In this document: positions 31,531-63,508 of the stretch, piece after piece | How the letters are laid out: each line of letters opens with the position of its first letter | How positions within the stretch are numbered: the first letter of the stretch is position 1 | Source: a phage | Reading direction: 5' to 3' (one strand) | Length of the DNA: 64,000 bases | Sequence record: PZ445489.1 | Translations under genes and position numbers: made by a program | The notes under the pieces: model-generated | The model's input: the letters and a program-made list of their open reading frames with translations, nothing else | The model's database searches: none | Told to the model about the DNA's origin: nothing

Positions 31531-31531
31531 A

Positions 31532-31592
31532 ATTTAAAAATTCATTTGCCTTCTCTCTTATTTCTTGTTATAATATCTATATAAATTAATGA
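31532..31592 (+). promoter_or_regulatory. T5-type early promoter
   Basis: TTGCCT 31546-31551, 17-nt spacer, TATAAT 31569-31574. Confidence 0.65.
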
Positions 31593-31604
31593 GAGGGAAA
31601 CCAA

Positions 31605-31895
31605 ATGAAACGTTATCTTTCTGTAGTATTCCAAACTGGTGGTCAAAGATATACCTATGAATTTCCATCTTCTTGGAAAATCAAAGAAGGTGATCAAGTA
31701 GTAGTGTTAACACCGCGTGAAGGATATAAAGTAGTAACGGTTAAACAAGTATTCCCAAAAGATCATGAACCAGCTAAAGGCATTCGCTATAAGATGATTC
31801 ATGGTGTGGTTCGTCAAGTACCACGAACTGAGGTAGAAGTAGATAAGACTGGAGAAGCTAAATTCCATTATACTTCTTACTTAGACAGTGTATGA
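31605..31895 (+). CDS. hypothetical protein (96 aa)
   Basis: ORF with GAGAGGGAAA RBS. Confidence 0.5.
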   Translation: MKRYLSVVFQTGGQRYTYEFPSSWKIKEGDQVVVLTPREGYKVVTVKQVFPKDHEPAKGIRYKMIHGVVRQVPRTEVEVDKTGEAKFHYTSYLDSV

Positions 31896-31910
31896 TGTAA
31901 ATATTCTAAT

Positions 31911-31987
31911 ACTTCGGTAGCTTAGCGATCTAAAGCACTCGGCTGATAACCGAGAGATCGGGGGTTTAAATCCCTCCCGGAGTACCA
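31911..31987 (+). tRNA. tRNA-Ile (anticodon GAT)
   Basis: Acceptor acttcgg/ccggagt, D-stem gctt/aagc, perfect anticodon stem ctcgg/ccgag, loop CTGATAA, T-loop TTTAAAT (atypical), CCA. Confidence 0.65.
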
Positions 31988-32083
31988 AATCTAGGAATTA
32001 AGACTATGCGTCCAGGAAAGTTTAAAAAAGCTAATTGGTCTAAAGAGTATAAAGAATACTTACTTAGTCTAGTAAAACATAAC

Positions 32084-32159
32084 AGTTAGTTGGCAGAGTG
32101 GTTATGCACCTCCTTCATACGGAGCGACTACAGTGGTTCAAATCCACTACTAACTACCA
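32084..32159 (+). tRNA. tRNA with anticodon CAT (Met, fMet or Ile2 undetermined)
   Basis: Perfect acceptor agttagt/actaact, anticodon loop TTCATAC, T-arm agtgg-TTCAAAT-ccact, CCA. Confidence 0.6.
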
Positions 32160-48655: not shown

Positions 48656-49386
48656 TGAAAGATTTGGCAGTAAAATTTAAGAATATTCTAGCCCTCGCTA
48701 AGGGGGCTGATCATCGCTGTTTCTCTGATCTAACTGCTCAAGAGAAACATGCAGTAATGTTTGTTTGTGAGATGTTCCCAGCTAGGTGGGAAGGTGGTAA
48801 GATTAAGTATGATAACAAAGCTGCAAAAGCTGACCTTGCTTACTCTTATGTTGATATGAATAAACTTCTCAAGTCTTTAGATCCAACTGCTAAAGGTCAC
48901 ATGGGAAACTATATTCATGTTATTATTGATGAACCTCTCCCAGCGTATAGAGAAACATCCGCTAGAGAAGCGTTAGAAGCGTATCCTGAGCAACTTCTTA
49001 TCCCACCTAAGAAATGTAAGTTCGATCATCTTCCAGCATTAGCTTTTGAAACTAGCATTACGTTTGAAGATATTTATAGAACGATTGGAGCTGTAGTAGC
49101 ACGGATTGCAGTGGCACATCATCGTGATATAGAACTAACTACAGCGGAAGATTACATTCTATATGCTATCCACGATGAAAAGGACTCCTTCAAACGTTTA
49201 ATGGATGCGCTAGGATTAGGTAGTCTCACTGCACTTGTGCTTAACCAGGCTCCTAGAACTAAGCGTTATGCAAAAGGATCTATTACTCTTGAAGAAACAG
49301 GATCTACATCTTCATTCCTTGCTACGTATATTTATCTAGCATCTAAAGGAATCTATCTAAAGGCTAGAAAGAATGTCACTATATAA
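48655..49386 (+). CDS. hypothetical protein (243 aa)
   Basis: ORF. Confidence 0.5.
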   Translation: MKDLAVKFKNILALAKGADHRCFSDLTAQEKHAVMFVCEMFPARWEGGKIKYDNKAAKADLAYSYVDMNKLLKSLDPTAKGHMGNYIHVIIDEPLPAYRETSAREALEAYPEQLLIPPKKCKFDHLPALAFETSITFEDIYRTIGAVVARIAVAHHRDIELTTAEDYILYAIHDEKDSFKRLMDALGLGSLTALVLNQAPRTKRYAKGSITLEETGSTSSFLATYIYLASKGIYLKARKNVTI

Positions 49387-49729
49387 AGTATATATTCTTG
49401 CAAATAGGGATCTGACGAAGATCCCTAAGAGAACAAAGATCGGTATTAGTATGAATCCACATAATAGGATTCAAACACTAAACTTAGATAAGATAGTTTA
49501 TCGTGGTTTTGACGATTTATACGTGTATGGGATCTATGAAACCCATAATCCTAGAGATCTAGAAGCCGCTGCACATATCTACTTTAAGAAATACCGCTGT
49601 AATTTAAAGGGATTCGAAGGATGCACAGAGTTCTTTGATATTCACCCACAACTTGCAGAACGATTCCTATTAAATACAGGAGCCAAGAAGATTTACGACC
49701 CCAATATCAATCTCGAAGGAGATGTATAA
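49373..49729 (+). CDS. GIY-YIG-like nuclease domain protein (118 aa)
   Basis: YKVYIL...KIGISMNPHNRIQTL resembles the GIY-(N10)-YIG-..R..N pattern; weak. Confidence 0.4.
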   Translation: MSLYKVYILANRDLTKIPKRTKIGISMNPHNRIQTLNLDKIVYRGFDDLYVYGIYETHNPRDLEAAAHIYFKKYRCNLKGFEGCTEFFDIHPQLAERFLLNTGAKKIYDPNINLEGDV

Positions 49730-49734
49730 ACGTT

Positions 49735-49790
49735 AACAAAATCTTCTTGACAACTCATTGCGGAACATGTTATAATAATCTCATAGATTA
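49735..49790 (+). promoter_or_regulatory. near-consensus sigma70 promoter with no downstream ORF
   Basis: TTGACA 49747-49752, 18-nt spacer, TATAAT 49771-49776. Confidence 0.5.
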
Positions 49791-49815
49791 AAAACAACTC
49801 TTGTTTTGAACTCTA

Positions 49816-49911
49816 GGGGCGATGATTATTACACTTAGTATTACGTCTATACGTTGCGACAGCACGAGTATAGATCTAATTACTAAGTCTTCCGTAATAC
49901 TCACGCGCCCC
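49816..49911. repeat. imperfect nested palindrome (about 95 bp)
   Basis: ggggcg..gtattacg..ctatac..gtatag..cgtaatac..cgcccc. Confidence 0.5.
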
Positions 49912-50224
49912 ACGAGGAATCTCACATGAAATGGGGGTATATTTACTTTTAAATAACTAAAAATATTTAAAGGCAATATCTGTGTTCAAGATGATACACC
50001 TGTTGCCGCTCATCTGCTAGGATGGCACAACACTTTCTAGTAGACTCCTAAGTTTCTAGGAATAGTTGAGCACTAACTCTAGAGTTTACATTAAACTTTA
50101 AATCTGTTTCTCTAGCCAACTCAGGCGGTTTTCATTGTTCCTAGAAACTCTAGCAATAGGCGGTTATAGGGAGGGCGGTTATTTCTAGAAGACATTTTTT
50201 GAAAACACATTTCCAGAAATTACT

Positions 50225-50825
50225 GTCGGATTTGCACACTGCATTTCTAGAAATTTATGGTCGGATTTGCACAAACGCCTAAGTTTTTAGGGACACATAA
50301 TCTCCTGAAAATAGCAGCATTATTTCGGGCCGAAGGCCCATGATTGCCTGAGTTTTTAGAGCCACAGAAATTTTCACTTGTCAAGCTATTTTGCCCCGTT
50401 TAGCTAATAAAATTTTACTTTTTCTGCACCTATCTCAAATTAACCCAAATTATCTCACATCTTCCCCAAAATCCCCGCAAATCAGGTGCTCCGCACCAAA
50501 CATGCGCCCCATCCTTCTAGCCTCCCAAATTTCTCTCACTCTCTCATCTTCTCCTCAAACCCACACAATCACACACCCTCCAATCGAAGTCACAAAAATC
50601 TTGTCGGATTCGCACAAATAAACCCATGTCGGATTTGCACATATTCTAGCTAATTCCACAGGATTGATGCGCAGCATCGGATTGCTGGAGTTTTTGGGAA
50701 AATTCATTGTCGGATTTGCACACTATAAAAATTTTTCGGGTCGGATTTGCACACTACCAAAAATTGTCGGATTCGCACATACATGCCCGCACGTAACACC
50801 CGTGGAGCAATGTCGGATTTGCACA
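50225..50825 (+). repeat. eight direct copies of 14-bp box GTCGGATT(T/C)GCACA
   Basis: Copies at 50225, 50260, 50603, 50628, 50709, 50740, 50766, 50812, all same orientation. Confidence 0.8.
50510..50585 (+). other. G-free C/T/A tract on + strand (about 75 nt)
   Basis: cctcccaaatttctctcactctctcatcttctcctcaaacccacacaatcacacaccctc has no G. Confidence 0.7.
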
Positions 50826-50871
50826 AAAGCGCAGGGCAATTGCCCTGCTAGCCTGAATGCGAATGATAATA

Positions 50872-51000
50872 AGAATCATTATCATTTAAAAAGCGAAATG
50901 AGAACTATTCAAAAAGTGAAATGATTCTCATTTAGGAAAGGAAATGATTATCGGTTAGAAAGTGAAATGCGAATGAGAATAATTCTCATTTAAGAATGGA
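50872..51000. promoter_or_regulatory. cluster of palindromic AATGAGAAT-N-ATTCTCATT-type operator-like boxes
   Basis: Palindromes at 50872-50896, 50928-50943, 50982-51000 plus GAAATGA half-site repeats. Confidence 0.55.
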
Positions 51001-51023
51001 AGTGAGAAACACTGTTATTTAAG

Positions 51024-51105
51024 TTATCCACAGACTTATTAACAGCACGATTTGACTTGACAGAATCCTAGCCATTTTGAGGCGTTATTAACAGACTTAT
51101 CCACA
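51024..51105 (+). promoter_or_regulatory. two DnaA-box-like TTATCCACA sites
   Basis: TTATCCACA at 51024-51032 and 51097-51105. Confidence 0.5.
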
Positions 51106-51129
51106 GCTTATCCTACTGTATAAATATAC
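51094..51129. repeat. 36-bp inverted repeat, left copy (partner 54637-54672)
   Basis: gacttatccacagcttatcctactgtataaatatac; 34 of 36 match reverse complement of right copy. Confidence 0.7.
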
Positions 51130-51327
51130 AGTATTCCTACGTAGTGAATAATTCTAATATACCGCTAAAACGTCCTAGATCGCATTCTAACGCGTTTAAT
51201 TTTGGTGGGGATACTAAAACAAGGGCAAAATTGGAGGAGGCTTAAAAATTAGTTAGCCCGCTAACGATCACACAAGTCGACACGTAACACCCTAATCATT
51301 AGCAGGCTAACCATCGCGGGCGCGCTC

Positions 51328-51348
51328 AAATGAGAATGATTCTCATTT
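51328..51348. promoter_or_regulatory. palindromic operator-like box AAATGAGAATGATTCTCATTT
   Basis: 10-bp arms, same family as the 50.9-kb boxes; just beyond 3' end of leftward operon. Confidence 0.5.
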
Positions 51349-51389
51349 GAGAATTGGGGGCACTCCCTGGTAGTTGCGCCCCGTTATTA

Positions 51390-51584
51390 TTAATCCGGTA
51401 ATTGATGCGTGATCTTCTCCTCTTCCCCATAGGAATCGACCAAATGCTGATAATAACCATCGGCATCATAAATAACGCTATCATATTCCCCCCGCTCGAC
51501 CGCTTGCCGGTTTTCCGGCGTATCGGGCACGTAAAAAACATCAACCATTGTACTGATTTTGGTTACAACAATTTTATTGCTCAT
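51390..51584 (-). CDS. hypothetical pre-early protein (64 aa)
   Basis: ORF, last gene of leftward operon; ATGA overlap with upstream gene. Confidence 0.45.
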   Translation of the reverse strand: MSNKIVVTKISTMVDVFYVPDTPENRQAVERGEYDSVIYDADGYYQHLVDSYGEEEKITHQLPD

Positions 51585-51925
51585 TGCGCCACCTTTCGAA
51601 ACGCTGTTTCAATACTATCCGCAGTGGATTGAATATACGCGCCTTTCATTACTAGGCGCTCGGTGCATACCTTGCGGAAAATATTAATAAAATCATCTTC
51701 ATTTTCTGCAATTAATGCTTCACCCATAACCTGAACGTCACAAGATGCAAAGGTCAAAAATTGAAACGCTAGTTCACGGGCAACGACCGCATTAATCTTA
51801 TAATGCGCTTTGCCCTCATAAATATTAATAACGCCCTTATAAGCTGGTGAAAGCTGGTTTAAATAGTTTGCTAACAATGCCGGGCGGCAATTAGCAACAA
51901 AGCGGTTGCCCTCATAAATAACCAT
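51581..51925 (-). CDS. hypothetical pre-early protein (114 aa)
   Basis: ATG after GGGAGG RBS (track start 51940 is upstream in-frame). Confidence 0.5.
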   Translation of the reverse strand: MVIYEGNRFVANCRPALLANYLNQLSPAYKGVINIYEGKAHYKINAVVARELAFQFLTFASCDVQVMGEALIAENEDDFINIFRKVCTERLVMKGAYIQSTADSIETAFRKVAQ

Positions 51926-51926
51926 T

Positions 51927-52052
51927 TTATAACCTCCCAATCAGATAGCCAGATAAAAGCATAAAAACCCCCAGTAAAAGGGGATCATTCTTAAATAGGG
52001 TGGCGGTAAAACCGCCAACCATTGCAAGGATAATAATAATAACGCTTTTCAT
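51927..52052 (-). CDS. small hydrophobic membrane peptide (41 aa)
   Basis: Single TM helix; stop overlaps next start; below ORF-track cutoff. Confidence 0.3.
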   Translation of the reverse strand: MKSVIIIILAMVGGFTATLFKNDPLLLGVFMLLSGYLIGRL

Positions 52053-52261
52053 AGTACCCCACGAAACGCAGCGTAAAAGGTGGCAAAGTGTTTAACCGTT
52101 TCAGCGATCACGTTGCCGCGCTTGTCAAATTTCTTTTCTGTAACACGAAAGGCATTCTTATTACGTGCTACATATTCGATTTTACAATCTTCACGCTCGA
52201 ACGTGTTAACATCCACCAGCTTAAAGCCTTTCGAACGGGCAAGGGAAACATTGCGGATCAT
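52049..52261 (-). CDS. hypothetical pre-early protein (70 aa)
   Basis: ATG after AAGGAG RBS. Confidence 0.5.
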   Translation of the reverse strand: MIRNVSLARSKGFKLVDVNTFEREDCKIEYVARNKNAFRVTEKKFDKRGNVIAETVKHFATFYAAFRGVL

Positions 52262-52263
52262 TT

Positions 52264-52419
52264 TTATTCTCCTTTACTAGTCATGCAGCCCAGCAGATAA
52301 GAAAATGCAGCGATACCTGCGCCAATAATAACCGCGTGAACGCCGAAAGCTATTGCAAACAACGATAAAATAGCGCCCAAGATACCCGCTAAAATAGCTC
52401 GAAAAATAACCATTTTCAT
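52264..52419 (-). CDS. small hydrophobic membrane peptide (51 aa)
   Basis: Single TM helix; below ORF-track cutoff. Confidence 0.3.
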   Translation of the reverse strand: MKMVIFRAILAGILGAILSLFAIAFGVHAVIIGAGIAAFSYLLGCMTSKGE

Positions 52420-52460
52420 TCCCCCTAGTTAGTGGGGCGAAAATAACGCCCCGTTATTAA

Positions 52461-52769
52461 TTACATTAAAACAATTTTAGCCGCTTGTTTTTTGGTGCAA
52501 TGTTCTGCTTTCAGGGTATCCAGCAAAAAGCCCGCCGTTTGCTGATCGATTTGATCATTATCATAAAGCGCCTGAATGGTAGTGTATGTTTTAGCAATGC
52601 CATATTCTTGCACCATTTCGTGAATAATAACGCGGTTAGATACCCAGCCTTGAGCGGTGAACAGATGACTAGCAGAAGAATAAGCAACCATTTTAAGCCT
52701 CCAATTTTTGGGAAAATTTTCAACCGTCCTCAAACGGTGTAAAGGCATTATAACAAAAAAGGCCACCAT
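52461..52769 (-). CDS. hypothetical pre-early protein (102 aa)
   Basis: ORF. Confidence 0.5.
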   Translation of the reverse strand: MVAFFVIMPLHRLRTVENFPKNWRLKMVAYSSASHLFTAQGWVSNRVIIHEMVQEYGIAKTYTTIQALYDNDQIDQQTAGFLLDTLKAEHCTKKQAAKIVLM

Positions 52770-52796
52770 AAAAGGCGACCTTTACAAAACTTTACA

Positions 52797-53291
52797 TTAG
52801 ACTACTTGTAGGGATTCAATATTGAAACATCGTTTCAATTCGTCATGCAAAACAGCATATTCATCCCATCGGGTACTATCAGGAATATAAACAAGCTGTT
52901 TTAATCGATTTGCGTATATTACCGCTTTGTTACCAACTATCTCGACGCCACCATATTTAATAATTAATCTCATGACGGAATTAATAGGATCGCCGCCGTT
53001 TACATATGTGCCGGATTTACTTAATTGATAATGATAAAGGCTTGCATATACGTTTTCATTTTCATACCATTCGCCAGTTTCTTCGTCTTCGTAACCATCG
53101 CTACCAAAACGAGAAGCATTATCAATAGCCATTTCCTGAGCGAAAGCGTCCAGATTACAGCCAGCTGGAACAAAATGTTCCTCCGTCCAACCTTCCCCGC
53201 AATAGCCAGTATGACAATCGACCAAAATGATCATATCATGTTTTGCCATGCTCACTTCTCCCAGTGAGAAGCCATATTTTTCATCAGCCAT
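52797..53291 (-). CDS. hypothetical pre-early protein (164 aa)
   Basis: ORF with GGAGG RBS. Confidence 0.55.
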   Translation of the reverse strand: MADEKYGFSLGEVSMAKHDMIILVDCHTGYCGEGWTEEHFVPAGCNLDAFAQEMAIDNASRFGSDGYEDEETGEWYENENVYASLYHYQLSKSGTYVNGGDPINSVMRLIIKYGGVEIVGNKAVIYANRLKQLVYIPDSTRWDEYAVLHDELKRCFNIESLQVV

Positions 53292-53356
53292 TTATTAGCC
53301 TCCTATTAATTAACAAGGGAATACTAAAGCGGGGTAACAATCCCCGCTTAGTATTA

Positions 53357-54367
53357 TTACTCGCTTTCGGTGTTAGTAGTAAAAGTAGAAATATCAATAC
53401 CTTTTACCATTTCATCAATCATTTCAGCGATGTTAAAACTTTGCACCATTTCTAACATAGCCGCTTCCATAGCCGCGCCTGCTACCGCTTTCGCTTTCTG
53501 GTTACTCGGGGCATACTGGTCAACCGCTACACTCAGCAGGTTGGCAATCACTACCCGACCAATCGGTGTATCAATATAACCTTTGATCATAAACGGTGCT
53601 TTTTTAGCCGCTACTTTCGTGATTTGAGTCAATGCAATTTTACCTGCTTCCAGTTTTGCAGCATTTACAACAGCGGATTTATTAGCGGCAACAATATTAG
53701 CGATCTTGGTCATGGTGTTTTTTCCTTTGTTTTCAGTAGTTTGAATTTTAACGCTTTGAGTGTTAGAATTTACAGCATGGTTTTCTACGCTGTCAATAAT
53801 CTGATCTTCATCTTTCCAGAAAGAAAAACCAGCGCTTTCTATATCCCCATCATAAATATATGGGTATAGCTCCCGTGGTAACAAAAAATTACCGTCGCCA
53901 TCAAAAGCCATTATACCGGTATATTGAGATCCGTCGTTATCCGGCTTATGCCATCCAGCCGGTAAATACTTCCAGATAACATCTAAAAATCCCTCAATAC
54001 TAGAAAGTCCGTTTATCAGATCAAGCCCAATAAGCTCAAAACCATTTATATTAAATGATTGACGGCCTGAATTGCTATGATACGCAACAATATTATTACC
54101 CTGTGCAACAATAAAATCGGTATCCGGCCCCGCTCCCCTGCCAGTAAAGATATGGCAATCACGGTTATATAAAACTAGCGTTGCCCCGTACTTATATAAT
54201 GGCAAAAAACCTTCCATATCATAGGCGTCATAGTCATCAAAAAAGTTTTGATGAATAGTTTCAGCCTTGTTAATAAAATGTTTAATGCTGGTTGACTTGC
54301 TACCGTCCAGCAGGTTACGCAGCGCACCTTTTAAGACGGTAGCATTATCAGGTTTATACAGCCTCAT
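53357..54367 (-). CDS. hypothetical pre-early protein (336 aa)
   Basis: First and largest gene of leftward operon; RBS GGAGG. Confidence 0.55.
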   Translation of the reverse strand: MRLYKPDNATVLKGALRNLLDGSKSTSIKHFINKAETIHQNFFDDYDAYDMEGFLPLYKYGATLVLYNRDCHIFTGRGAGPDTDFIVAQGNNIVAYHSNSGRQSFNINGFELIGLDLINGLSSIEGFLDVIWKYLPAGWHKPDNDGSQYTGIMAFDGDGNFLLPRELYPYIYDGDIESAGFSFWKDEDQIIDSVENHAVNSNTQSVKIQTTENKGKNTMTKIANIVAANKSAVVNAAKLEAGKIALTQITKVAAKKAPFMIKGYIDTPIGRVVIANLLSVAVDQYAPSNQKAKAVAGAAMEAAMLEMVQSFNIAEMIDEMVKGIDISTFTTNTESE

Positions 54368-54636
54368 TTGTTCGGCCTCCCTCGTTAATCGGTGAGTGAA
54401 TGATATAGATATTTTCTTTCTAGGGGCAAATATTATTTTACCTTTTTATTTTCCTTGCCTAGCGCCTAGTTTTATGCTAACCGCGCAGCGGTGCAATAAA
54501 GAGCAAAACACGGCGAAGCCCCCAGGGCGACGGGTGAAGGCTTTACTTTAATATTACCCCACCGCATTTAGCTCGTTAGAAAGCGTTTTAGGCCGCTTAA
54601 AATTGATTGCAGTTGTTAACACTACCTTTTTACCTT

Positions 54637-54672
54637 GTATATTTATACAGTAGGATAACATGTGGATAAGTC
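54637..54672. repeat. 36-bp inverted repeat, right copy (partner 51094-51129)
   Basis: gtatatttatacagtaggataacatgtggataagtc. Confidence 0.7.
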
Positions 54673-54742
54673 TGTGGATAAGCCCTTATATCGCCGCCTA
54701 TTGTGTCAAATCATTTTGTGCTGTGGATAACGTTGTGGATAA
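54661..54742 (-). promoter_or_regulatory. cluster of four DnaA-box-like sites
   Basis: TGTGGATAA on + strand at 54661, 54673, 54722, 54734 (TTATCCACA on minus). Confidence 0.55.
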
Positions 54743-55025
54743 CTTAAATGATAGTGGTTCTCACTTAGGCCGATAGTTTCTTATAGTTATTATTTCTATT
54801 GGTTACGATTTCTTATAATTATTATTTCTCATTAATTTATATGTATATTATATATCATGAAATAGTTAGTTGGCTAATGAGATTTTCCGTGATTAATAGT
54901 CTGCTAATAATTTAAGCCGTTACAATCCACCAGCACGATTATCATCCTAGCAATTATAAGCCTGCTATTCTCCCAATACACACTAACAAACAAAAGTCAA
55001 TTAATTTATTTCATAAAATAAGTAG

Positions 55026-55058
55026 TTATCCACTGGAAAATAAAAGTCAAGTGGATAA
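55026..55058. promoter_or_regulatory. inverted pair of DnaA-box-like sites
   Basis: agttatccact and agtggataact, 11-bp arms 14 nt apart. Confidence 0.5.
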
Positions 55059-55459
55059 CTAGGAAAATTTCATTTTTGCTTTTTGGGGATAAGTTATCAA
55101 CAAGGCTAGAATGCGCCTAAAACGCCCTAGAACGCGATGAAAGTTTTAGCCATGCCATTGCATTGCCTACCCTCGTTTATCGCTGCCACGAGCTTTTTAA
55201 GTTTTGTCAATACCCCCAAAGCAAATATAGATGAAAAAATTACTTGCCAACCTGCTGGGTTTTATGGTATTCGCGCGCCCGTTTCTTTTAATTTTAGTGC
55301 GGCGCGCCCAGGTCGCCGCACGCCGTCCGGTTAATCGTGTCTTTACGTTTCTTTACAAAAATAAGGTTGCGCCATTTTTGGTATTTGCTATTATTTACCA
55401 CGTAGGGCGGCAATGACGAACTACACGGCGGGAAGTTTACCGCCGCGCTCTTTAAAAAT

Positions 55460-55483
55460 TGGGTACATCTTAAAGCCTATCGG
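55460..55483. repeat. 24-bp perfect inverted repeat, left arm
   Basis: tgggtacatcttaaagcctatcgg; exact reverse complement at 55729-55752. Confidence 0.8.
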
Positions 55484-55516
55484 CGGTAAACTTATTCATT
55501 ATAAGGAATCGACGAT

Positions 55517-55720
55517 ATGAAACAAACTTTATTGATCACTGGTAAACCTAGCAAGGCACTGGACAGCAAAACAAAAAATTTGTTGACAGTAGCGCAAAGA
55601 TCGGTAAAATATCGATTTAAGCAGTACAAGAAAGGCCGCCAGCAAGGTCTGGAAATGATCTGGCGTAATATTATGATTGACTTAAAAGAAAATCATAAAA
55701 AACTGCAAAAAATTGTTTGA
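55517..55720 (+). CDS. small basic protein (67 aa) bracketed by 24-bp inverted repeat
   Basis: ATG with weak purine-rich RBS (GGAATCGACGAT upstream); Lys/Arg-rich. Confidence 0.45.
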   Translation: MKQTLLITGKPSKALDSKTKNLLTVAQRSVKYRFKQYKKGRQQGLEMIWRNIMIDLKENHKKLQKIV

Positions 55721-55728
55721 CACCCTAG

Positions 55729-55752
55729 CCGATAGGCTTTAAGATGTACCCA
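55729..55752. repeat. 24-bp perfect inverted repeat, right arm
   Basis: ccgataggctttaagatgtaccca. Confidence 0.8.
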
Positions 55753-55947
55753 GTTCGATAAGAGCGATAACTTGATAAAATTTGACGGTCGGCACTTACC
55801 ATAATGTGCCCCGCCCCCTAACTGGGATATAGCGGCCTGCGTGGAGTTCTTTAAATTGATTATATTGGCGAGCGGATTGTTGCTTATTACCTGCTAGAAA
55901 GTAGCAGGTAATGCGGAACAATCCCCTAAATAACTGGAGTTTATACT

Positions 55948-56199
55948 ATGCAAAACGTTATCATTACGCCGAAAGTTGGTCAATCCGTTTTTATTCCTTT
56001 CGTTACTAAAACGGATGAATTAACCGGAAAGGCCGAACGCATTAAAGGCGCGGCGCTTATGCCGTTCGATACAATCGACGCGGTATACGCTGAAACGGAA
56101 CGGAGTAACAACGGCAAAACCGTTTTTAGCGTTCGCGTTAAATCCGGCGACGTTGTAAAGGTTGTCCAGCGTAACGAAAAATGGGAAGCTGTAGCGTAA
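55948..56199 (+). CDS. hypothetical pre-early protein (83 aa)
   Basis: ATG after GGAG RBS. Confidence 0.5.
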   Translation: MQNVIITPKVGQSVFIPFVTKTDELTGKAERIKGAALMPFDTIDAVYAETERSNNGKTVFSVRVKSGDVVKVVQRNEKWEAVA

Positions 56200-56300
56200 T
56201 ATAGTGTTAACTTTATATTCCTCTGAAATATGGGGAATATAATGATTAACATTAAGTTAATCATTAAATCCCTTAAATTAAACTAACAGGAGCTACAATC

Positions 56301-56708
56301 ATGACTAACGTTAAAACCGCAAAATTCTCATGGAATGAAGAAAACACCCAAAAAGCTGTTACCATGTACCAGCAGTTAATTAATGAAAACGGTTTAGATT
56401 TCGCAAATAGCGACGGCCTGAAAGAGATTGCAAAAGCAGTTGGCGCGGCCTCCCCCGTGTCCGTTCGCTCAAAATTGACCAGCGCGAAAGCGTATCAGAA
56501 AAGCGATAAGCCGCGCAAAGTTGGCGGCGGTAGCTCAATCCGCAAAGCGCATTATGTGCGCGTTATTGCAAAACACGCTATCGATTCCGGCATTATCAAA
56601 GACGCCGACGATCTGGCATCACTGGAAAGCGCAAAACTGGAAACGCTGGACGCCGTGGCGCAACTGTTAGGCGTTGCCGATGAAGTGAAACAAGCCGCAG
56701 GCGAATAA
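56301..56708 (+). CDS. A2: pre-early protein, A2-like by size and position
   Basis: 135 aa, AGGAG RBS, directly upstream of A1-like gene; assignment by synteny and size only. Confidence 0.4.
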   Translation: MTNVKTAKFSWNEENTQKAVTMYQQLINENGLDFANSDGLKEIAKAVGAASPVSVRSKLTSAKAYQKSDKPRKVGGGSSIRKAHYVRVIAKHAIDSGIIKDADDLASLESAKLETLDAVAQLLGVADEVKQAAGE

Positions 56709-56765
56709 ATTTAATTAGTGGGGAATATTCCCCACTATAATTTCCCTTTGACTGGAGTTATTAAA

Positions 56766-56963
56766 ATGATCTTTTACCCTACTGAATCCTTAATTCTAGG
56801 CTTATTTATTATGGCGGCCTCATTACTATTCGCTTATTTTCAAAATGATTTAGATTCATATTATTTTAAACGTAAATCTAAGTTAGCAAAGCGTTTAGGT
56901 CTGATTTGTTTTATTGCCGCCGTTGTTTGTGGTGTTAGTTCTAGCCTTATGCCTTTAAATTAA
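56766..56963 (+). CDS. small membrane protein (65 aa)
   Basis: ATG after GGAG RBS; two hydrophobic segments (track start 56718 is upstream). Confidence 0.45.
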   Translation: MIFYPTESLILGLFIMAASLLFAYFQNDLDSYYFKRKSKLAKRLGLICFIAAVVCGVSSSLMPLN

Positions 56964-57060
56964 TGTTGCAAATTATAACGCCTCAAATAATAGGCGTTAT
57001 ATTTGGCAATATTTGCCAATAACAAACGTTTTTTAATCCCTTTAATGGAGTTTTATTACT

Positions 57061-58725
57061 ATGATTATTTCCGCAGAAAAACAAACCGTTATCCTGAAAA
57101 TGGCCGCTGACTTTAATTTCTACGGTAAACGTCTGCGCGCTACTAAACTGGAGGTCTGCGACGATATATCAAAAGCGGTTTACGATACTCCAAAACATTC
57201 CACCGCTATTTGTGATTGGCTGGAAGCAAATAAACCAGCGAAACCGAAAGCGGCGAAAGTAGCAAAAGCCATTAAAAACGATGAGCGCCCAGAAGCGGCG
57301 GGGATTGTTTCTAGCACGGTGGAAAGCTGGGAAGTAAAACAAGGCAAACGCTTTATTATTACATCGATTCAGAATAATACGTTCCCGCATAAAAACTTTT
57401 TAGCCTCACTGGAGCAATTTGCTAAATATATCGGCGCTGATTTGCTGGTTAGCAAGTATATTTATAATAAAAACGGATTCCAAAATGGCGAGGGCGCGGA
57501 TGGAATAAAATATGATTCCGCGTTCGATAAATATATTTGCAGCAAAAACGTGTTTTTGAATAATCGCCGTTTTGCTTTCATGGCTGAAATTAATGTTTTG
57601 CCCACCGCAGATTATCCGCTTTCTGGATTCGCTGAAACTGCAACCGCGCTTAATCTGGAAGGTCTGGCAATTGGTCACGCTAAAATCACCGCCGAAAGCG
57701 TGCCAGCTTTAAAAGGTGAAGTAGTGCGCCGCATGTATTCAACTGGCACGGCAACGCTTAAAAATTACATCCAGCAGAAAGCAGGACAGAAAGCGGAAGC
57801 ACTGCATAACTTCGGTGCGCTGATTGTTGAGTTCGACGAAGACGGTGAGTTTTTTGTTCGCCAGCTTGAAACAATGGACGAAAGCGGGGTGTTTTATGAT
57901 CTGAATGTTTGCGCTACTCCCGCCGGATGCTATGAAACATCGGGGCATGTTTTAGGCTTACAATACGGCGATATTCACGCAGAAAAATTAGATGAAGAGT
58001 GCGCCGCCGCGTCATGGGCTGGCGAAAATAGCTTGCTTGATATTCTTAAACCAAAATATCAGTTTATCCATGACGTTCACGACTTTACATCACGCAACCA
58101 TCACAACCGCGCTTCGGGTGTATTCCTAGCAAAACAATACGCCGCCGGACGTGATAAAGTTCTGGATGATCTTATCGATACCGGTCGCGTGCTGGAATCA
58201 ATGGAACGTGATTTCTCGCAAACAATCATTGTTGAATCTAATCACGATCTGGCGCTATCCCGTTGGCTGGATGATCGTAATGCTAACATTAAAGACGACC
58301 CCGCAAACGCGGAACTATATCACCGCCTTAATGCCGCGATTTATGGCGCTATTGCAGAAAAAGACGATACTTTCAACGTGCTAGATTATGCGCTGCGTAA
58401 GGTTGCAGGTTGCGAGTTTAACGCCATTTTCCTAACGACTGACCAATCATTTAAAATTGCAGGCATTGAATGCGGCGTACACGGTCACAATGGCATAAAC
58501 GGCAGCCGTGGCAATCCGAAACAGTTTAAGAAATTGGGCAAATTAAACACGGGGCACACTCATACCGCCAGCATTTACGGCGGGGTATATACCGCTGGCG
58601 TGGCTGGTAGTCTGGACATGGGTTACAACGTTGGCGCGTCAAGCTGGACACAAACGCATTTAATTACCTATGCAAATGGTCAGCGTACTTTGATCGACTT
58701 TAAGAACGGTAAATTTTTTGCGTAA
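57061..58725 (+). CDS. A1: pre-early protein A1-like with calcineurin-like phosphoesterase motifs
   Basis: 554 aa; GDIHAE, ESNHD and GHTHTAS resemble Mre11/SbcD-type metallophosphoesterase motifs; size matches T5 A1 as I recall it. Confidence 0.55.
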   Translation: MIISAEKQTVILKMAADFNFYGKRLRATKLEVCDDISKAVYDTPKHSTAICDWLEANKPAKPKAAKVAKAIKNDERPEAAGIVSSTVESWEVKQGKRFIITSIQNNTFPHKNFLASLEQFAKYIGADLLVSKYIYNKNGFQNGEGADGIKYDSAFDKYICSKNVFLNNRRFAFMAEINVLPTADYPLSGFAETATALNLEGLAIGHAKITAESVPALKGEVVRRMYSTGTATLKNYIQQKAGQKAEALHNFGALIVEFDEDGEFFVRQLETMDESGVFYDLNVCATPAGCYETSGHVLGLQYGDIHAEKLDEECAAASWAGENSLLDILKPKYQFIHDVHDFTSRNHHNRASGVFLAKQYAAGRDKVLDDLIDTGRVLESMERDFSQTIIVESNHDLALSRWLDDRNANIKDDPANAELYHRLNAAIYGAIAEKDDTFNVLDYALRKVAGCEFNAIFLTTDQSFKIAGIECGVHGHNGINGSRGNPKQFKKLGKLNTGHTHTASIYGGVYTAGVAGSLDMGYNVGASSWTQTHLITYANGQRTLIDFKNGKFFA

Positions 58726-58781
58726 ATAATTAATACCCTAGCGGCTTGAAATATAGCCGCTATTATAGGAGCTAAATTAGA

Positions 58782-59039
58782 ATGAAAGTTACATTACCCA
58801 AAACGCTGGACGAAAAAGCATTTATTTCACCGGATGAAATGGAATCCGATAAAGTTTACAGCTTCGGGCCTATCCTAGCCGCCAAAACTAATACGGATGG
58901 GATTATTACGGTCGATTATCGTGATAATGATATTATCCCTTTTGACGATGATGACGCTTTTTATGAGTGGCTAAGCGATAATAATTTACCCGTAAATGGT
59001 GAATTAACGCCGTATCAAATGCAGATTATTATCAAGTAA
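58782..59039 (+). CDS. hypothetical pre-early protein (85 aa)
   Basis: ATG after AGGAG RBS. Confidence 0.5.
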   Translation: MKVTLPKTLDEKAFISPDEMESDKVYSFGPILAAKTNTDGIITVDYRDNDIIPFDDDDAFYEWLSDNNLPVNGELTPYQMQIIIK

Positions 59040-59079
59040 ATTAAATACCCTTTATTAAATTAATTGGAGTTTTATAAAT

Positions 59080-59472
59080 ATGAAAAAGCAAAATATCCCA
59101 TTCGATCGCGCTCAATCTTCCATTGTTCTGGTTTATTCTAATGGTGAACGTTACCACGTCGAGGCGGGGCACGTTATTGATGAGCTATTGGACTTTAACG
59201 ACGCTTTGCAGGTTACTACCTTTGCCTATACGCAAGGTAAACTAACTAGCCATATTAAAGCAAAAGGTGTTTATGTTGACACTGTGAAACAAGAAACGAT
59301 TATCATCGACGCCGTAAAATCCGGCCTAGCCTTTGCAGTTGTCGCGCCTTGCCCCGCTTGCCTCGATGATCAATTGACCAGCGCAAAGGTATATACCTGC
59401 GCGGGCATTCGTTCCGGTGTATCTGGTGAAGATATTAGTTTTATTGCTGATGCGTTGGCGTATGGTCTTTAA
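59080..59472 (+). CDS. hypothetical pre-early protein (130 aa)
   Basis: ATG after GGAG RBS. Confidence 0.5.
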   Translation: MKKQNIPFDRAQSSIVLVYSNGERYHVEAGHVIDELLDFNDALQVTTFAYTQGKLTSHIKAKGVYVDTVKQETIIIDAVKSGLAFAVVAPCPACLDDQLTSAKVYTCAGIRSGVSGEDISFIADALAYGL

Positions 59473-59552
59473 TAGTTAATTTATTATTACCCGCTTATAA
59501 ATAGCGGGTAATGCTGAATTAATCTAATCCCTTAAATGGAGAACGTAACAAA

Positions 59553-60287
59553 ATGAATCAAGTTAAAACGAATATTACCCGTAATTTCCCGCATATTTCC
59601 CGCGTCATGATTTGGGATCTGGACGGAACTATCATTAATTCTTTCCATCGCGTAGCGCCTTGCTTTGATAGCGAGGGCAATTTAGATTTAAATAAGTATA
59701 AAAATGAAGCATGTAAACATGATTTAATAATGCAAGATACACTATTGCCGCTTGTTACATATATGCGCCAGTGCATGAATGATGTTAGTACGTTAAACAT
59801 TATTTGCACCGCTCGACTGATGAGCAAGTCGGACTATTATTATTTGCGCAAACAAGGATTGCGAGGGCGTGGGGATAGTAATATCCGTGTATTTTCCCGC
59901 GATACACTACACAAATATTTTGAGGCTGATAAAGTTAGCGAGATATACCACAGCAAAGACGCTATTTATAAAAGCCATTACTTTGAGTTATTTAAACAAT
60001 TATATCCGAACGCTGATTTCACGATGATTGATGATCATAAAGGCGTGCTATCAGCGGCGGCGTCATACGGATTTAAAACGCTGGACGCGCAAGCCGTTAA
60101 CGATATTCTATCGATTGGGGTTACATTGATAGGTGAAACCTTTATCGATGAATCTCTTGAGGATGATAATGATTATCAGTTCCTAGCCGACCGCCTGCAA
60201 TTATGTTGGGAAGGTATGACCGAAGAAGAACGCGCAGAATATAGTTGCAGCCCGCAACAATATATTGAGAAATTAAAAGTTGCGTAA
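59553..60287 (+). CDS. dmp: HAD-family 5'-deoxyribonucleotidase-like protein (Dmp-like)
   Basis: 244 aa; HAD motif I IWDLDGTIIN; size and position match T5 dmp as I recall it. Confidence 0.55.
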   Translation: MNQVKTNITRNFPHISRVMIWDLDGTIINSFHRVAPCFDSEGNLDLNKYKNEACKHDLIMQDTLLPLVTYMRQCMNDVSTLNIICTARLMSKSDYYYLRKQGLRGRGDSNIRVFSRDTLHKYFEADKVSEIYHSKDAIYKSHYFELFKQLYPNADFTMIDDHKGVLSAAASYGFKTLDAQAVNDILSIGVTLIGETFIDESLEDDNDYQFLADRLQLCWEGMTEEERAEYSCSPQQYIEKLKVA

Positions 60288-60299
60288 TAATTAAAGTTG

Positions 60300-60345
60300 A
60301 AATAGTCACGGTGTGTAATGATAACATGCCGTGACTATTAGCCTG
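60300..60345 (+). terminator. hairpin after dmp-like gene
   Basis: agtcacggtgtgtaatgataacatgccgtgact stem-loop; no clear T-run. Confidence 0.35.
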
Positions 60346-60438
60346 CTAAGTACCGGGCGGTAATGAGACTCATTCTCATCTGGAGGGCCACTGGACACAC
60401 CTCCATGTGTAATCTTATGAAATTTGGCAAAAAGTCAA

Positions 60439-60684
60439 TTAGCGCATAGAAGGGTCATCAAAACGATGTTCAGGTTTAAACTCACGAAATCTCTTCCGCG
60501 ACGCCCGAGATCCATCCGACCATTCTCGCTCAAACTCCGCACGTTTCTCGTCAAACTTCCGCTCCCTATCCGCAATCTCCCGCGTCACTCCCGCAATATA
60601 TTTACGATGCTTGTTGATTGCCGCAGTTGTCCCGAAAACCCCCGCGAGTATCCCGATAATAAAAGCAATTACAATACTAAACAT
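60439..60684 (-). CDS. small membrane protein (81 aa)
   Basis: N-terminal TM helix then charged tail. Confidence 0.45.
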   Translation of the reverse strand: MFSIVIAFIIGILAGVFGTTAAINKHRKYIAGVTREIADRERKFDEKRAEFEREWSDGSRASRKRFREFKPEHRFDDPSMR

Positions 60685-60871
60685 CTAATTCCCTCTCAAT
60701 TTGCAGAATACGGGTACTATCACAACGTTGCAGTAGTGCTAGCTTTTCTAGAGTAACTTGTTGTTGTTTTACCTGAGCTTCTAGCGTTTTTAGGCGAACG
60801 TACACGGTGTAAGAAATAATGAAAACTGCCCAGACTAGTATTACTGTTAGTGTAGCTACTACCTCCATCAT
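60677..60871 (-). CDS. small membrane protein (64 aa)
   Basis: N-terminal TM helix; overlaps downstream gene start. Confidence 0.45.
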   Translation of the reverse strand: MMEVVATLTVILVWAVFIISYTVYVRLKTLEAQVKQQQVTLEKLALLQRCDSTRILQIERELDV

Positions 60872-60974
60872 TTACATTTCTCCGATAGTAAGGTTTCGAT
60901 TCTAGCTAAGTGATTATCTAAGATACATTGCCCAATAATCACAATCCCTAGTAATGCAATAATTACCCATTCCA

Positions 60975-61160
60975 TTAAATCCATCCCGCCATAGCTGCTA
61001 ACCAAAAACCTACGAAGATTAGGAATAATACAAAACCAAATCCGTAAATATTAATCCACTCTTCGTACACCTCTCCGCGTCTGTTCTTTCTTTTGTTGCC
61101 GTTTGACATGTCTTTCATACTCCCGTAAATGTGGTATTTGGAATATTCTAGCAATTGCAC
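60975..61160 (-). CDS. small membrane protein (61 aa)
   Basis: C-terminal TM helix. Confidence 0.4.
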   Translation of the reverse strand: MQLLEYSKYHIYGSMKDMSNGNKRKNRRGEVYEEWINIYGFGFVLFLIFVGFWLAAMAGWI

Positions 61161-61272
61161 AAGTCATAACATTTTATCTTATATGATGTTCTGAATGACC
61201 TCAATTGCATTGTGAACTAGTTTTGACCTAGGATCCACCCTAAGTGGCATGGGTTTATGGGAGGGATTCTCC

Positions 61273-61506
61273 TCAGAAAACTCCTTCACATGTATTCCCC
61301 TCGGTAAAGTAGCTTACTGGAGCCCAGAAAGATCCATAGGCCATGATTGGTGCCACCAGGAACATATCCCCTTTTCTATCAAAAACATTAGCCTTATATT
61401 TCACATGATCTTGTACATAGTAGGCCTCACATTTAATATCTTTAGGCCCAAAAGTAGAGCAAGCCGAAAGAAGTACCACTGCCATAGCTAAAAATAATTT
61501 TTTCAT
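61273..61506 (-). CDS. llp: lytic-conversion lipoprotein Llp-like
   Basis: 77 aa; signal peptide with lipobox LSAC; AGGAG RBS; divergent from pb5-like gene as in T5. Confidence 0.75.
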   Translation of the reverse strand: MKKLFLAMAVVLLSACSTFGPKDIKCEAYYVQDHVKYKANVFDRKGDMFLVAPIMAYGSFWAPVSYFTEGNTCEGVF

Positions 61507-61585
61507 TTACATTCTCCTCTGTTTAATTTATAATACTATTATACAGAATTATAGCAACATAAGCAATTAAATTTTTGGAGAACTT

Positions 61586-63508
61586 ATGAGTTTTTTCGCT
61601 GGCAAGCTAAATAACAAATCTATACTCTCTCTACGCAGGGGTAGTGGCGGAGATACTAATCAACATATTAATCCTGACTCTCAGACCATATTCCATTCAG
61701 ATATGCCCCATGTTATCATAACAGAAACTCACTCCACAGGGTTGAGGCTAGATCAAGGTGCTGGAGATTACTACTGGTCTGATATGCCTAGCAGAATTAC
61801 CCAGTTACATAATAATGATCCTAATAGGGTTGTGCTGACAGAGATTGAGTTCTCAGATGGCTCTAGACATATGCTATCTGGCATGTCTATGGGGGTAGGA
61901 GCTAAAGCGTATGGAATTATAAATCCGCAGGTCATGTCTCAAGGTGGTTTAAAAACACAAATAACAGCTAGTGCTGATCTATCTCTTGATGTAGGCTATT
62001 TTAATAGTGGTACTAGCGGTACGATCCCCCAGAAGCTTAGAGATGGTACTGGATGTCAGCATATGTTTGGAGCCTTTAGTGGGCGTAGAGGATTTGCATC
62101 TAGTGCAATGTACTTAGGCGGTGCCGCTCTTTACAAATCTGCCTGGGATGGTTCAGGATATGTAGTGCCGGATTCAGGAACTCTAACTATCCCTAGCGAC
62201 TACGTTAGGCATCCAGGAGCTAGAAACTTTGGATTTAACGCCATATATGTTCGTGGTAGGTCTTGTAATAGAGTTCTTTATGGTATGGAAGGGCCCAACT
62301 ACACCACTGCTGGAGCTGTACATGGGGCGTCGAGTTCAGGGGCTCTTAACTTTATGTCTAATCCTAGCAATCCCTCGGCTCCTAAGTACTCTGTAGGTTT
62401 CGCACGTGCTGATCCCACTAACTATGCGTATTGGGAAAGTATGGGTGATCCGAATGATGCTGCTAATGGGCCCATAGGTATATATAGTGAGCACCTCGGT
62501 ATTTATCCATCTAAAATTACCTGGTATGTTACTAACTTAGTGTATAATGGTTCAGGTTATAGTATTGATGCTGGATTATTTACAGGTAATGATATAAAAT
62601 TAAGCCCCACTGAATTTATTATTAAAGGTATTAACGTTAATAATACATCTTGGAAGTTTATCAACTTTGTTGAGAAAAACTTTAATGTAGGGAGCAGAGC
62701 TGATTTTCGTGATGTTGGGTGTAACTTGAGTATGGGTGGCCCCTCTACTGGGATCTCTGGCATAGCAACATTTGGACTACCAACCACAGAAAGCAATAAC
62801 GCACCAAGTATTAAGGGTGGTAACGTTGGTGGTTTAAATACTAATGTAGTTAGTATTTATAACTTTTTACCTTCAGCATCTTGGTATGTTTCTAGTAATC
62901 CTCCAAAAATAGGGAGTAATTATGGGGACGTTTGGAGTGAAAATCTTCTACCTTTAAGACTTCTAGGTGGTAGCGGAAGTACTGTACTATCTGGTAACAT
63001 AGTATTTCAGGGTAATGGTTCCGTGCATGTTGGTACCGTGGGACTAGATCTTAATAGTAGTAGAAATGGTGCAATTGTATGTACTATGGAGTTCCTAGAT
63101 GACACATGGTTGTCTGCAGGAGGTATTGGCTGCTTTAATCCTACGGAAATGCTATCTAAAGGCGCTGAATATGGCGATAGTAGGTTTAGAATGGGTGGCA
63201 ATACTATTGATAAAAAACTTCACCAAATATTGTCCCTACCTGCAGGAGAATATGTACCATTTTTTACTATTAAAGGTACTGTAGTAAATGCTTGTAAATT
63301 ACAGGCTGCTGGGTATACTCCAACTCCGTACTGGGTATCTGGGTTGCCAGGATCCGTAGGTCAAACGGGTTACTATACTCTAACATACTATATGAGAAAT
63401 GATGGAAATAATAATATCTCTATTTGGTTAGAATCCTCTATGAGCAATATAATTGGCATGAAAGCATGCTTACCAAATATTAAACTTATAATTCAACGCC
63501 TTACCTAA
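61586..63508 (+). CDS. oad: receptor-binding tail protein pb5-like
   Basis: 640 aa, the size of T5 pb5 as I recall it; Gly/Ser/Asn-rich; adjacent and divergent to llp-like gene. Confidence 0.65.

What the first reader, a model, noticed from the sequence alone, without database searches (positions are those of the whole stretch)
49735..61250. Compositional and promoter-type break, read as a single-copy terminal-repeat region joining early and late regions
All 27 T5-type promoters lie below 49.8 kb. From 49.8 to about 61.2 kb the sequence is GC-richer with different repeats and gene styles, then llp and pb5-like late genes follow. In T5 the pre-early region lies in the terminal repeat, so early and late regions flanking one copy suggests a circularised or repeat-collapsed assembly. 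A different genome arrangement in this phage is also possible.
Basis: inference. Interest (0 to 1): 0.4.

Follow-up and report, generated by a model that had tools for sequence, protein, structure and literature searches.

The report
Collapsed terminal repeat of T5-like phage
This stretch is the ordinary 10-kb terminal repeat (pre-early, first-step-transfer region) of a T5-like phage, shown once between the early and late genes because assemblers merge the two end copies, which is a well-known artefact and not a new genome layout.

Summary
The window comes from a T5-like phage (Tequintavirus). The flagged block holds the canonical T5 pre-early region: dmp, A1 and A2, a leftward operon of small genes, and the untranslated injection-stop region with its repeats and eight paired DnaA boxes.

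Homology to four genomes with determined ends (T5, Elw, BF23, Kenya-K37) places the repeat at window 50359-60397, about 10,039 bp.

Early-region unique DNA adjoins one side and late-region unique DNA (T5.159-162 homologues, llp, pb5) adjoins the other. A linear virion genome cannot show this. It is the concatemer-junction or repeat-collapsed form, and at least 19 GenBank relatives are deposited the same way. The literature describes it explicitly.

The promoter break is real. TTGCTW-N17-TATAAT gives 21 hits against 0.11 expected, none of them in the repeat, but one sits at 61538 upstream of llp. The GC rise is small (40.9% against 39.1%).

One side observation may be new. Just outside the repeat (49747-49911) there is a consensus promoter followed by a 96-nt hairpin with strong covariation. 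It looks like an unannotated small RNA gene.

The parts
50359..60397 (.). Single copy of the T5-type long direct terminal repeat (first-step-transfer, pre-early region), about 10,039 bp.
   Evidence: The right physical ends of T5 (121750) and Elw (118119) and the inner repeat end of BF23 (9743) all align to window 50359. Position 1 of T5 aligns to 60397, and position 1 of BF23 and the inner repeat end of Elw to 60396. Kenya-K37 gives 50388 and 60381.
50225..50825 (+). Eight direct repeats GTCGGATTYGCACA (the DRD repeats of T5 Repeat Region 3, part of the injection-stop region). Two copies lie outside the repeat boundary at 50359.
   Evidence: Davison (10.1101/866236, section 3.3.1) describes nine DRD repeats in T5 and says Repeat Region 3 overruns into unique DNA.
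51000..51130 (.). 131-nt inverted repeat IRD'spacerIRC' carrying two DnaA-box pairs (51024/51036 and 51085/51097). This is the candidate injection stop signal. The palindromes AATGAGAATNATTCTCATT lie on either side, at about 50972 and 51329.
   Evidence: The arm is 79% complementary to 54636-54766. The layout matches the one described.
54636..54766 (.). Partner arm IRCspacerIRD, with four TTATCCACA boxes in two pairs separated by 3 bp.
51390..54367 (-). Leftward pre-early operon. It holds homologues of T5.017, .015, .014, .013, .012 and .011, plus a 164-aa ORF (52797-53291) that T5 lacks.
   Evidence: blastn against T5, Elw and oldekolle. PHROG hits phrog_4263, 6741, 5145 and 4379. Annotations.
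54368..55136 (.). Untranslated Repeat Regions 1 and 2, lying between the two diverging pre-early gene blocks. T5's HNH endonuclease gene hegG is absent here.
   Evidence: T5 5419-6098 corresponds to only 231 bp in the window. T5 promoter features are listed.
55583..55610 (+). Pre-early promoter of the TTGACA type (TTGACA-N16-TAAAAT), the counterpart of T5 P-H22.
   Evidence: and the T5 annotation at 4799-4873.
56301..56708 (+). A2 DNA-binding protein gene.
   Evidence: phrog_1725, E = 9e-52. Homologous to T5.006.
57061..58725 (+). A1 DNA transfer protein gene.
   Evidence: phrog_1745, E = 3e-244.
59553..60287 (+). dmp, deoxynucleoside-5'-monophosphatase gene. It is the last gene before the repeat boundary.
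   Evidence: phrog_415, E = 2.4e-56. Annotated as dmp in T5, Elw and BF23.
60439..61167 (-). Small membrane-protein genes (T5.162-159 homologues) in late-side unique DNA. They are not part of the repeat.
   Evidence: ORFs. T5 and Elw annotations.
61273..61566 (-). llp (Cor-type receptor-blocking lipoprotein) with its own early-type promoter TTGCTT-N17-TATAAT at 61538-61566.
   Evidence: phrog_1119, E = 1.4e-18. Promoter.
61586..63508 (+). pb5 (oad), receptor-binding tail protein gene.
   Evidence: phrog_4815, E = 3.6e-257.
49747..49911 (+). Side observation in early-side unique DNA. A consensus promoter (49747-49776) is followed by a small hairpin (49791-49807) and a 96-nt hairpin (49816-49911). 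This is a candidate unannotated small RNA gene.

Best explanation
Window 50359-60397 is the one retained copy of the roughly 10-kb direct terminal repeat of a T5-like phage.

In the virion this segment is present at both ends. It is the first DNA injected, and it carries the pre-early genes (dmp, A1, A2 and small ORFs). These are read from TTGACA-type host promoters that differ from the TTGCTW/TATAAT early promoters. It also carries the untranslated injection-stop region with DnaA boxes.

The two copies are identical, so a short-read assembler merges them and closes the genome into a circle. The single copy then sits between the early region (rightwards in T5, leftwards in this window) and the late region (llp, pb5, terminase). 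A replicative concatemer would be expected to show the same junction (inference by analogy with T7).

Shown here: the identity of the segment, its boundaries by homology, and contiguity on both flanks. Inferred: that this phage's virions carry two copies with ends at these positions.
For: 1. The block matches 525 phage records, nearly all Demerecviridae. The best are Elw at 96% and OSYSP at 92%, annotated A1, A2 and dmp.
2. The ends of T5, Elw and BF23 map to 50359 and 60396/60397. Those of Kenya-K37, supported by PhageTerm and PFGE, fall within 30 nt of them. Sepoy's PhageTerm inner end is at about 50342 (PMC10644984 and PMC10783031).
3. Both junctions are contiguous with T5 unique DNA.
4. 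In records that start at a physical or curated left end, the match stops near query position 20397, which is window 60396 (Elw, NBSal005). At least 19 records of 106-112 kb carry the whole 24-kb early|repeat|late stretch internally.
5. The canonical anatomy is present: dmp-A1-A2 order, eight DRD repeats, a 131-nt inverted repeat, and eight DnaA or DnaA* boxes in pairs 3 bp apart. This matches Davison's description.
6. Davison states that GenBank T5-like records with dmp, A1 and A2 in the late region are assembly artefacts of the large terminal repeats. PMC10783031 states that the two repeats overlap in assembly into one high-coverage segment of a circular contig.
Against: No reads are available, so doubled coverage and read-start pile-ups at 50359 and 60397 cannot be shown for this phage. 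Its nearest relative is only 96% identical. Repeat boundaries are not universal in the family: Kenya-K36 has an 8,641-bp repeat whose inner end corresponds to about window 49735, and K37's annotated ends are shifted by 15-30 nt.
Confidence: 0.93

Rival explanations
1. The phage really has a different physical arrangement. For example, its repeat boundaries are shifted (K36-like, inner end near 49735), or its repeat is of a different length, while the sequence is still a collapsed circle.
For: In Kenya-K36 the annotated repeat (1-8641) includes the promoter-and-hairpin element that lies outside the repeat in T5, Elw, BF23, K37 and Sepoy. K37's ends differ by 15-30 nt.
Against: The sequence around 50359 is identical to T5 over 80 nt, and the 60397 junction is conserved. 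The closest relatives (Elw 96%, BF23, T5) all cut at the same two positions. K36's copy of the junction-side element (window 49730-49990) is only 78.5% identical.
Confidence: 0.05
2. The phage has no terminal repeat here at all. It would be, for example, a circularly permuted headful packager, or it would have the pre-early region as an internal single-copy module. In that case the early|pre-early|late order is the true virion order.
For: None beyond the bare fact that only one copy is seen in the window.
Against: Every characterised member of the family has long direct terminal repeats covering exactly this segment. Gene order is fully collinear with the T5 circular map. Two-step injection needs this region at the leading end of the DNA.
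Confidence: 0.01
3. The GC-richer block is a horizontally acquired island inserted between the early and late genes.
For: GC is 1.8 points above the rest of the window and 3.9 points above the preceding 10 kb, and the promoter type differs.
Against: The block is conserved at the same place in 525 relatives. T5's own repeat has the same promoter type. The tRNA region reaches the same GC.
Confidence: 0.01

Closest known systems
Phage T5 terminal repeats (NC_005859: left 1-10219, right 111532-121750; first-step-transfer DNA)
   Same: It shares the gene order dmp-A1-A2, the leftward operon T5.011-017, Repeat Regions 1-3, the DRD repeats, the 131-nt inverted repeat with paired DnaA boxes, and TTGACA-type pre-early promoters. 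Both boundaries fall at homologous nucleotides. Identity is about 85-91%.
   Different: Only one copy is present in the window. T5's hegG HNH endonuclease gene is missing. A 164-aa ORF (52797-53291) and a roughly 110-bp segment (51940-52048) are present here and absent from T5. The T5.003 homologue is divergent.
Escherichia phage vB_EcoD-Elw (OR621298, 118,119 bp, annotated repeats of 9,935 bp) and BF23 (OR083247, repeats of 9,743 bp by PhageTerm)
   Same: These are among the closest relatives with both repeats written out. Elw is 96-97% identical, and both have their ends at window 50359 and 60396.
   Different: Those records are given as linear virion genomes with two copies. The window has the collapsed form.
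Repeat-collapsed, circularly permuted GenBank records of T5-like phages (for example SUT_E1520, EC142, slur09, phiLLS, mar004NP2)
   Same: They carry the same contiguous early|repeat|late arrangement inside a 106-112 kb record. The literature treats this as an assembly artefact.
   Different: Nothing in kind. They differ only in sequence divergence of about 8-11%.
T7-type concatemer junction (one copy of a short direct terminal repeat between genome units)
   Same: By analogy, a single repeat copy joins the right and left unique ends in replicating DNA. This rests on my own knowledge and was not tested here.
   Different: The T7 repeat is about 160 bp and non-coding. Here it is 10 kb and encodes a whole temporal gene class.

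Membership tests
T5-type (Demerecviridae) terminal repeat / first-step-transfer region | Carries dmp, A1 and A2 in that order, starting at the physical left end. | tested here: met
   dmp is at 59553-60287, A1 at 57061-58725 and A2 at 56301-56708, read from the boundary at 60397. Davison gives this as the criterion for true T5-like phages.
T5-type (Demerecviridae) terminal repeat / first-step-transfer region | Has a large untranslated region at the inner end with IRD'spacerIRC', DRD repeats, and eight DnaA or DnaA* boxes in pairs 3 bp apart, with the partner IRCspacerIRD further in. | tested here: met
   There are eight DRD copies at 50225-50825. The 131-nt inverted repeat arms are at 51000-51130 and 54636-54766. 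Four box pairs are present (compared).
T5-type (Demerecviridae) terminal repeat / first-step-transfer region | Boundaries coincide with mapped virion termini. | tested here: met
   Met by homology only. The ends of T5, Elw and BF23 map to 50359 and 60396/60397, and K37's fall within 30 nt.
T5-type (Demerecviridae) terminal repeat / first-step-transfer region | The segment is present twice, in direct orientation, at the two ends of virion DNA. | not testable with these tools
   The window holds one copy. Reads, PFGE or long reads are needed.
T5-type (Demerecviridae) terminal repeat / first-step-transfer region | Pre-early promoters are distinct from the early TTGCTW-N17-TATAAT class. | tested here: met
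   None of the 26 early-type sites falls in the repeat. TTGACA-type sites occur at 55583 and 55717. T5's left repeat shows the same pattern.
Repeat-collapsed / circularised assembly | One repeat copy is flanked by left-end unique DNA on one side and right-end unique DNA on the other. | tested here: met
   T5 10220-10608 maps to window 50358-49985, and T5 107935-111531 maps to window 64000-60398. Both are contiguous with the repeat.
Repeat-collapsed / circularised assembly | Read depth is about twice as high over the collapsed segment, with read-start peaks at its ends. | not testable with these tools
   No reads are available. This signature is described for Kenyan T5-like phages in PMC10783031.
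Known RNA families (Rfam 15), for the side-observation hairpin at 49816-49911 | Scores against a curated covariance model. | tested here: not met
   No hit at E <= 1 at that position in 49000-62000.

The most novel reading that the evidence does not exclude
The main finding holds nothing new. The most novel reading left open concerns the left edge of the flagged block, in the unique DNA just inside the left terminal repeat.

Many T5-like phages carry there a small RNA gene that I did not find described in the searched library or in Rfam. It consists of a consensus sigma-70 promoter (49747-49776), a small covarying hairpin, and a 96-nt hairpin (49816-49911). The basal 15 pairs of the long hairpin are invariant. 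Its apical roughly 55 nt occur as at least four sequence types that share only about half their positions, and all stay paired on the plus strand.

Invariant flanks around a swapped apical part are the pattern one would expect if the RNA interacts with a variable host or phage factor. Examples would be a decoy or antidote against a defence system, or a regulator of pre-early shut-off by antisense read-through into the convergent T5.011-017 operon.
Probability: 0.35. Interest if true: 0.5.

Novelty: already known. Interest (0 to 1): 0.1.

Why it matters
The practical consequence is for annotation. This contig should be re-opened at window 60397 (minus strand, the T5 left end), and the 10,039-bp segment should be duplicated at the other end. 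The true genome is then about 10 kb longer, and the pre-early genes are not misread as lying between early and late modules.

The result adds nothing to the biology of T5 terminal repeats. The candidate small RNA at 49747-49911 is the only item that might repay experiments.

Tried and rejected
- The generic sigma-70 and terminator scan did not separate the regions (63 found against 61 expected). Only the specific T5 early pattern did.
- The horizontally acquired island idea was rejected on synteny.
- I looked for the window's own record. Nothing in the phage collection exceeds about 96-97% identity, so no deposited annotation or stated topology could be consulted.
- The roughly 110-bp extra segment at 51940-52048, relative to T5, Elw and oldekolle, turned out to be common in other relatives (156 records). 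It is ordinary mosaicism.
- For the hairpin RNA, Rfam gave no hit.
- blastn of the transcript against 5,426 E. coli genomes found nothing at E <= 10.
- Scans of viral and metagenome contigs added only a few variants, and several were chance matches to the 19-mer.
- Three literature searches for a T5 small RNA or a T5 transcriptome found no description. Rad, the T5 anti-retron factor, is a protein in the tRNA region and is unrelated.
- Small ORFs overlapping the hairpin region are not conserved. The ATG at 49927 opens 8 codons here, is followed at once by a stop in GEC_N5, K36 and UTK0010, and other annotators called 38-41-aa ORFs on either strand.
Full report
**Identity of the window**

The flagged block (49735-61250) matches 525 phage records. 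Almost all are T5-like phages of Escherichia, Salmonella and Klebsiella. The best matches are Elw (96%) and OSYSP (92%), and the features under the match are annotated A1, A2 and deoxynucleoside-5'-monophosphatase. Upstream the window carries 23 tRNA genes at 20-32 kb and a dense set of T5 early promoters. It is therefore a Tequintavirus-type genome read in the reverse of the T5 convention.

**The observation**

- *Promoters.* The specific early-promoter pattern TTGCTW-N17-TATAAT occurs 21 times against 0.11 expected. With one mismatch it occurs 26 times against 2.3 expected.
  - Nineteen of the exact hits are on the plus strand between 6.6 and 44.3 kb. None lies between 44,276 and 61,537.
  - One exact site at 61538-61566 (minus strand) precedes llp, so 'all below 49.8 kb' is off by one.
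  - A perfect TTGACA-N18-TATAAT lies at 49747-49776.
  - T5's own left repeat also lacks the TTGCTW class and uses TTGACA-type sites such as P-H22. The window has the counterpart at 55583-55610.
- *Composition.* GC is 40.9% in the repeat, 39.1% in 1-49734 and 37.0% in the preceding 10 kb. Only 2.8% of 10-kb windows reach the repeat's GC, and the others start at 20.8-21.3 kb and cover the tRNA region. GC skew flips with the direction of transcription.
- *Repeats.* The different repeats are real.
- *Flanking genes.* llp and pb5 follow the block.

**What the block is**

I used blastn against T5 (NC_005859), Elw and oldekolle and fine alignments.

- The right physical ends of T5 and Elw, and the inner repeat end of BF23, all align to window 50359.
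- Position 1 of T5 aligns to 60397. Position 1 of BF23 and the inner repeat end of Elw align to 60396.
- Kenya-K37, whose repeats are supported by PhageTerm and PFGE (PMC10783031), gives 50388 and 60381.
- Sepoy's PhageTerm boundary falls at about 50342.

The repeat in the window is therefore 50359-60397, about 10,039 bp. The latter holds four small membrane-protein genes homologous to T5.159-162.

The anatomy inside the repeat is canonical:

- *DRD repeats.* Eight GTCGGATTYGCACA repeats lie at 50225-50825, and two of them are outside the boundary. Davison notes the same overrun of Repeat Region 3 in T5.
- *Inverted repeat.* Its 131-nt arms are at 51000-51130 and 54636-54766.
- *DnaA boxes.* There are eight DnaA or DnaA* boxes in four pairs, each pair 3 bp apart (description in 10.1101/866236).
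- *Leftward operon.* It holds homologues of T5.017 to T5.011.
- *Repeat Regions 1 and 2.* These are untranslated and lack T5's hegG insertion.
- *Rightward genes.* They run T5.009/008/007, A2, T5.005, A1, two small ORFs and dmp.

**Why one copy sits between early and late genes**

In the virion, the dmp end of the left repeat is a physical end, and the injection-stop end of the right repeat is a physical end.

In the window, the injection-stop end runs without a break into T5 10220-10608 (early side). The dmp end runs without a break into T5.162-159, llp, pb5 and the small terminase gene (late side). This is exactly what results when two identical end copies are merged and the genome is closed into a circle. 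I would expect a concatemer junction to look the same (by analogy with T7, not tested).

The search with 40000-64000 shows both behaviours among relatives. Records opened at a real or curated left end stop matching near query 20397, which is window 60396 (Elw, NBSal005), or at 20382 (K37). At least 19 records of 106-112 kb carry the whole stretch internally.

The literature describes the artefact outright. [quoted passage not shown] The Kenyan phage study describes the two repeats overlapping in assembly into one segment of more than twice the coverage, in a genome assembled as a circle.

**Rivals**

- A truly different arrangement is not supported, because collinearity with the T5 circular map is unbroken.
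- A shifted boundary is conceivable. Kenya-K36's 8,641-bp repeat ends at the equivalent of about 49735. However, the nearest relatives all cut at 50359, and the 80 nt around that junction are identical to T5.
- An acquired island is excluded by conservation across the family.
- Direct proof (read depth, terminal reads) cannot be obtained here.

**Side observation**

- *Structure.* The consensus promoter at 49747-49776 (with TG upstream of the -10) is followed by a 7-bp hairpin (49791-49807) and a 96-nt hairpin (49816-49911). The 203-nt stretch folds at -59.6 kcal/mol, z = -5.8.
- *Distribution.* 272 phage records hold it, and most have no feature annotated there. T5 itself has a different structured segment behind an analogous promoter (TTGACA-N17-TTATCAT at T5 10879, minus strand).
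- *Conservation pattern.* Across 11 relatives the promoter -10, the leader and the basal part of the long hairpin are invariant. The apical roughly 55 nt fall into four types sharing only 46-74% of aligned positions (33/72 to 46/62), yet each folds into a continuous hairpin.
- *Strand.* Pairing is stronger on the plus strand than on the minus strand in every type. Inner-region z scores are -4.7, -1.5, -4.5 and -1.7 on the plus strand, against -3.5, +0.4, -0.25 and +0.6 on the minus strand. U-G pairs on the plus strand explain the difference, which argues for an RNA and not a DNA cruciform.
- *Covariation.* I used a covariance-model alignment of 13 distinct sequences.
  - 94.6% of cells are paired, against 30-41% when partners are slid.
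  - 17 of 44 pairs change on both sides (0 of 500 shuffles reach this).
  - 14 of 19 pairs in the variable helix are compensatory.
  - The caveat is that the alignment was fitted to the model.
- *Negative searches.* There was no Rfam hit, no similarity to E. coli genomes, and no description in the searched literature.
- *Function.* It is unknown. The gene lies in the unique DNA next to the left repeat, so it should be among the first second-step DNA to enter the cell (my inference). It points towards the convergent pre-early operon.

**Verdict**

The feature is a textbook T5 terminal repeat in a collapsed assembly. It is already known, and interest is low.

Noticed in passing
window 49747-49955 (+): A consensus sigma-70 promoter is followed by a small covarying hairpin and a 96-nt hairpin. 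The basal stem is invariant. The apical stem is hypervariable (four sequence types) but always paired. The element is present in 272 T5-like records, mostly unannotated, and has no Rfam family. It is a candidate small RNA gene.
   Followed up: partly
L009 (Kenya-K36, OQ291033) 145-557, equivalent to window ~49735: The annotated repeat of K36 (8,641 bp) includes the promoter-and-hairpin element. The same element lies outside the repeat in T5-, Elw-, BF23-, K37- and Sepoy-type genomes. Terminal-repeat inner boundaries therefore differ within the family, or that annotation is imprecise.
   Followed up: no
window 50225-50273 versus 50359: Two of the eight DRD repeats (GTCGGATTTGCACA) lie outside the terminal-repeat boundary in unique DNA. 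The repeat array of the injection-stop region therefore straddles the end of the repeat, as reported for T5.
   Followed up: yes
window 61506-61566: Back-to-back promoters lie between llp and pb5. An exact early-type TTGCTT-N17-TATAAT (minus strand, 61538-61566) faces llp. A TTTACA-N17-TATAAT (plus strand, 61506-61534) faces pb5. T5 annotates the same pair of promoters.
   Followed up: partly
window 52797-53291 (-) and 54765-54996: Mosaic differences from T5 inside the repeat. A 164-aa ORF (phrog_6741, unknown function) is present here, in Elw, oldekolle, BF23 and K37, and absent from T5. T5's HNH endonuclease gene hegG is absent here.
   Followed up: partly
window 55231-55520 (+): Elw annotates one 96-aa ORF here (Elw_00188). 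The window has two overlapping ORFs of 61 and 35 aa joined by ATGA, and the second corresponds to T5.009. This is either a frameshift or a real two-gene arrangement.
   Followed up: no
window 49373-49729 (+): The last early-side gene before the promoter-and-hairpin element is a 118-aa ORF. Its homologues are annotated as a putative homing endonuclease or GIY-YIG nuclease in Sepoy, DT571/2 and GEC_vB_N5. Other relatives have a different ~240-aa gene at this position.
   Followed up: no
window 20049-32159 (+): There is a cluster of 23 tRNA genes, all on the plus strand. Its GC content equals that of the terminal repeat, which weakens GC as a marker of the repeat.
   Followed up: yes
window ~6400-6600: GC skew changes sign here, and divergent promoters are present (6369 minus strand; 6449 and 6590 plus strand). 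This marks a switch of transcription direction within the early region.
   Followed up: no
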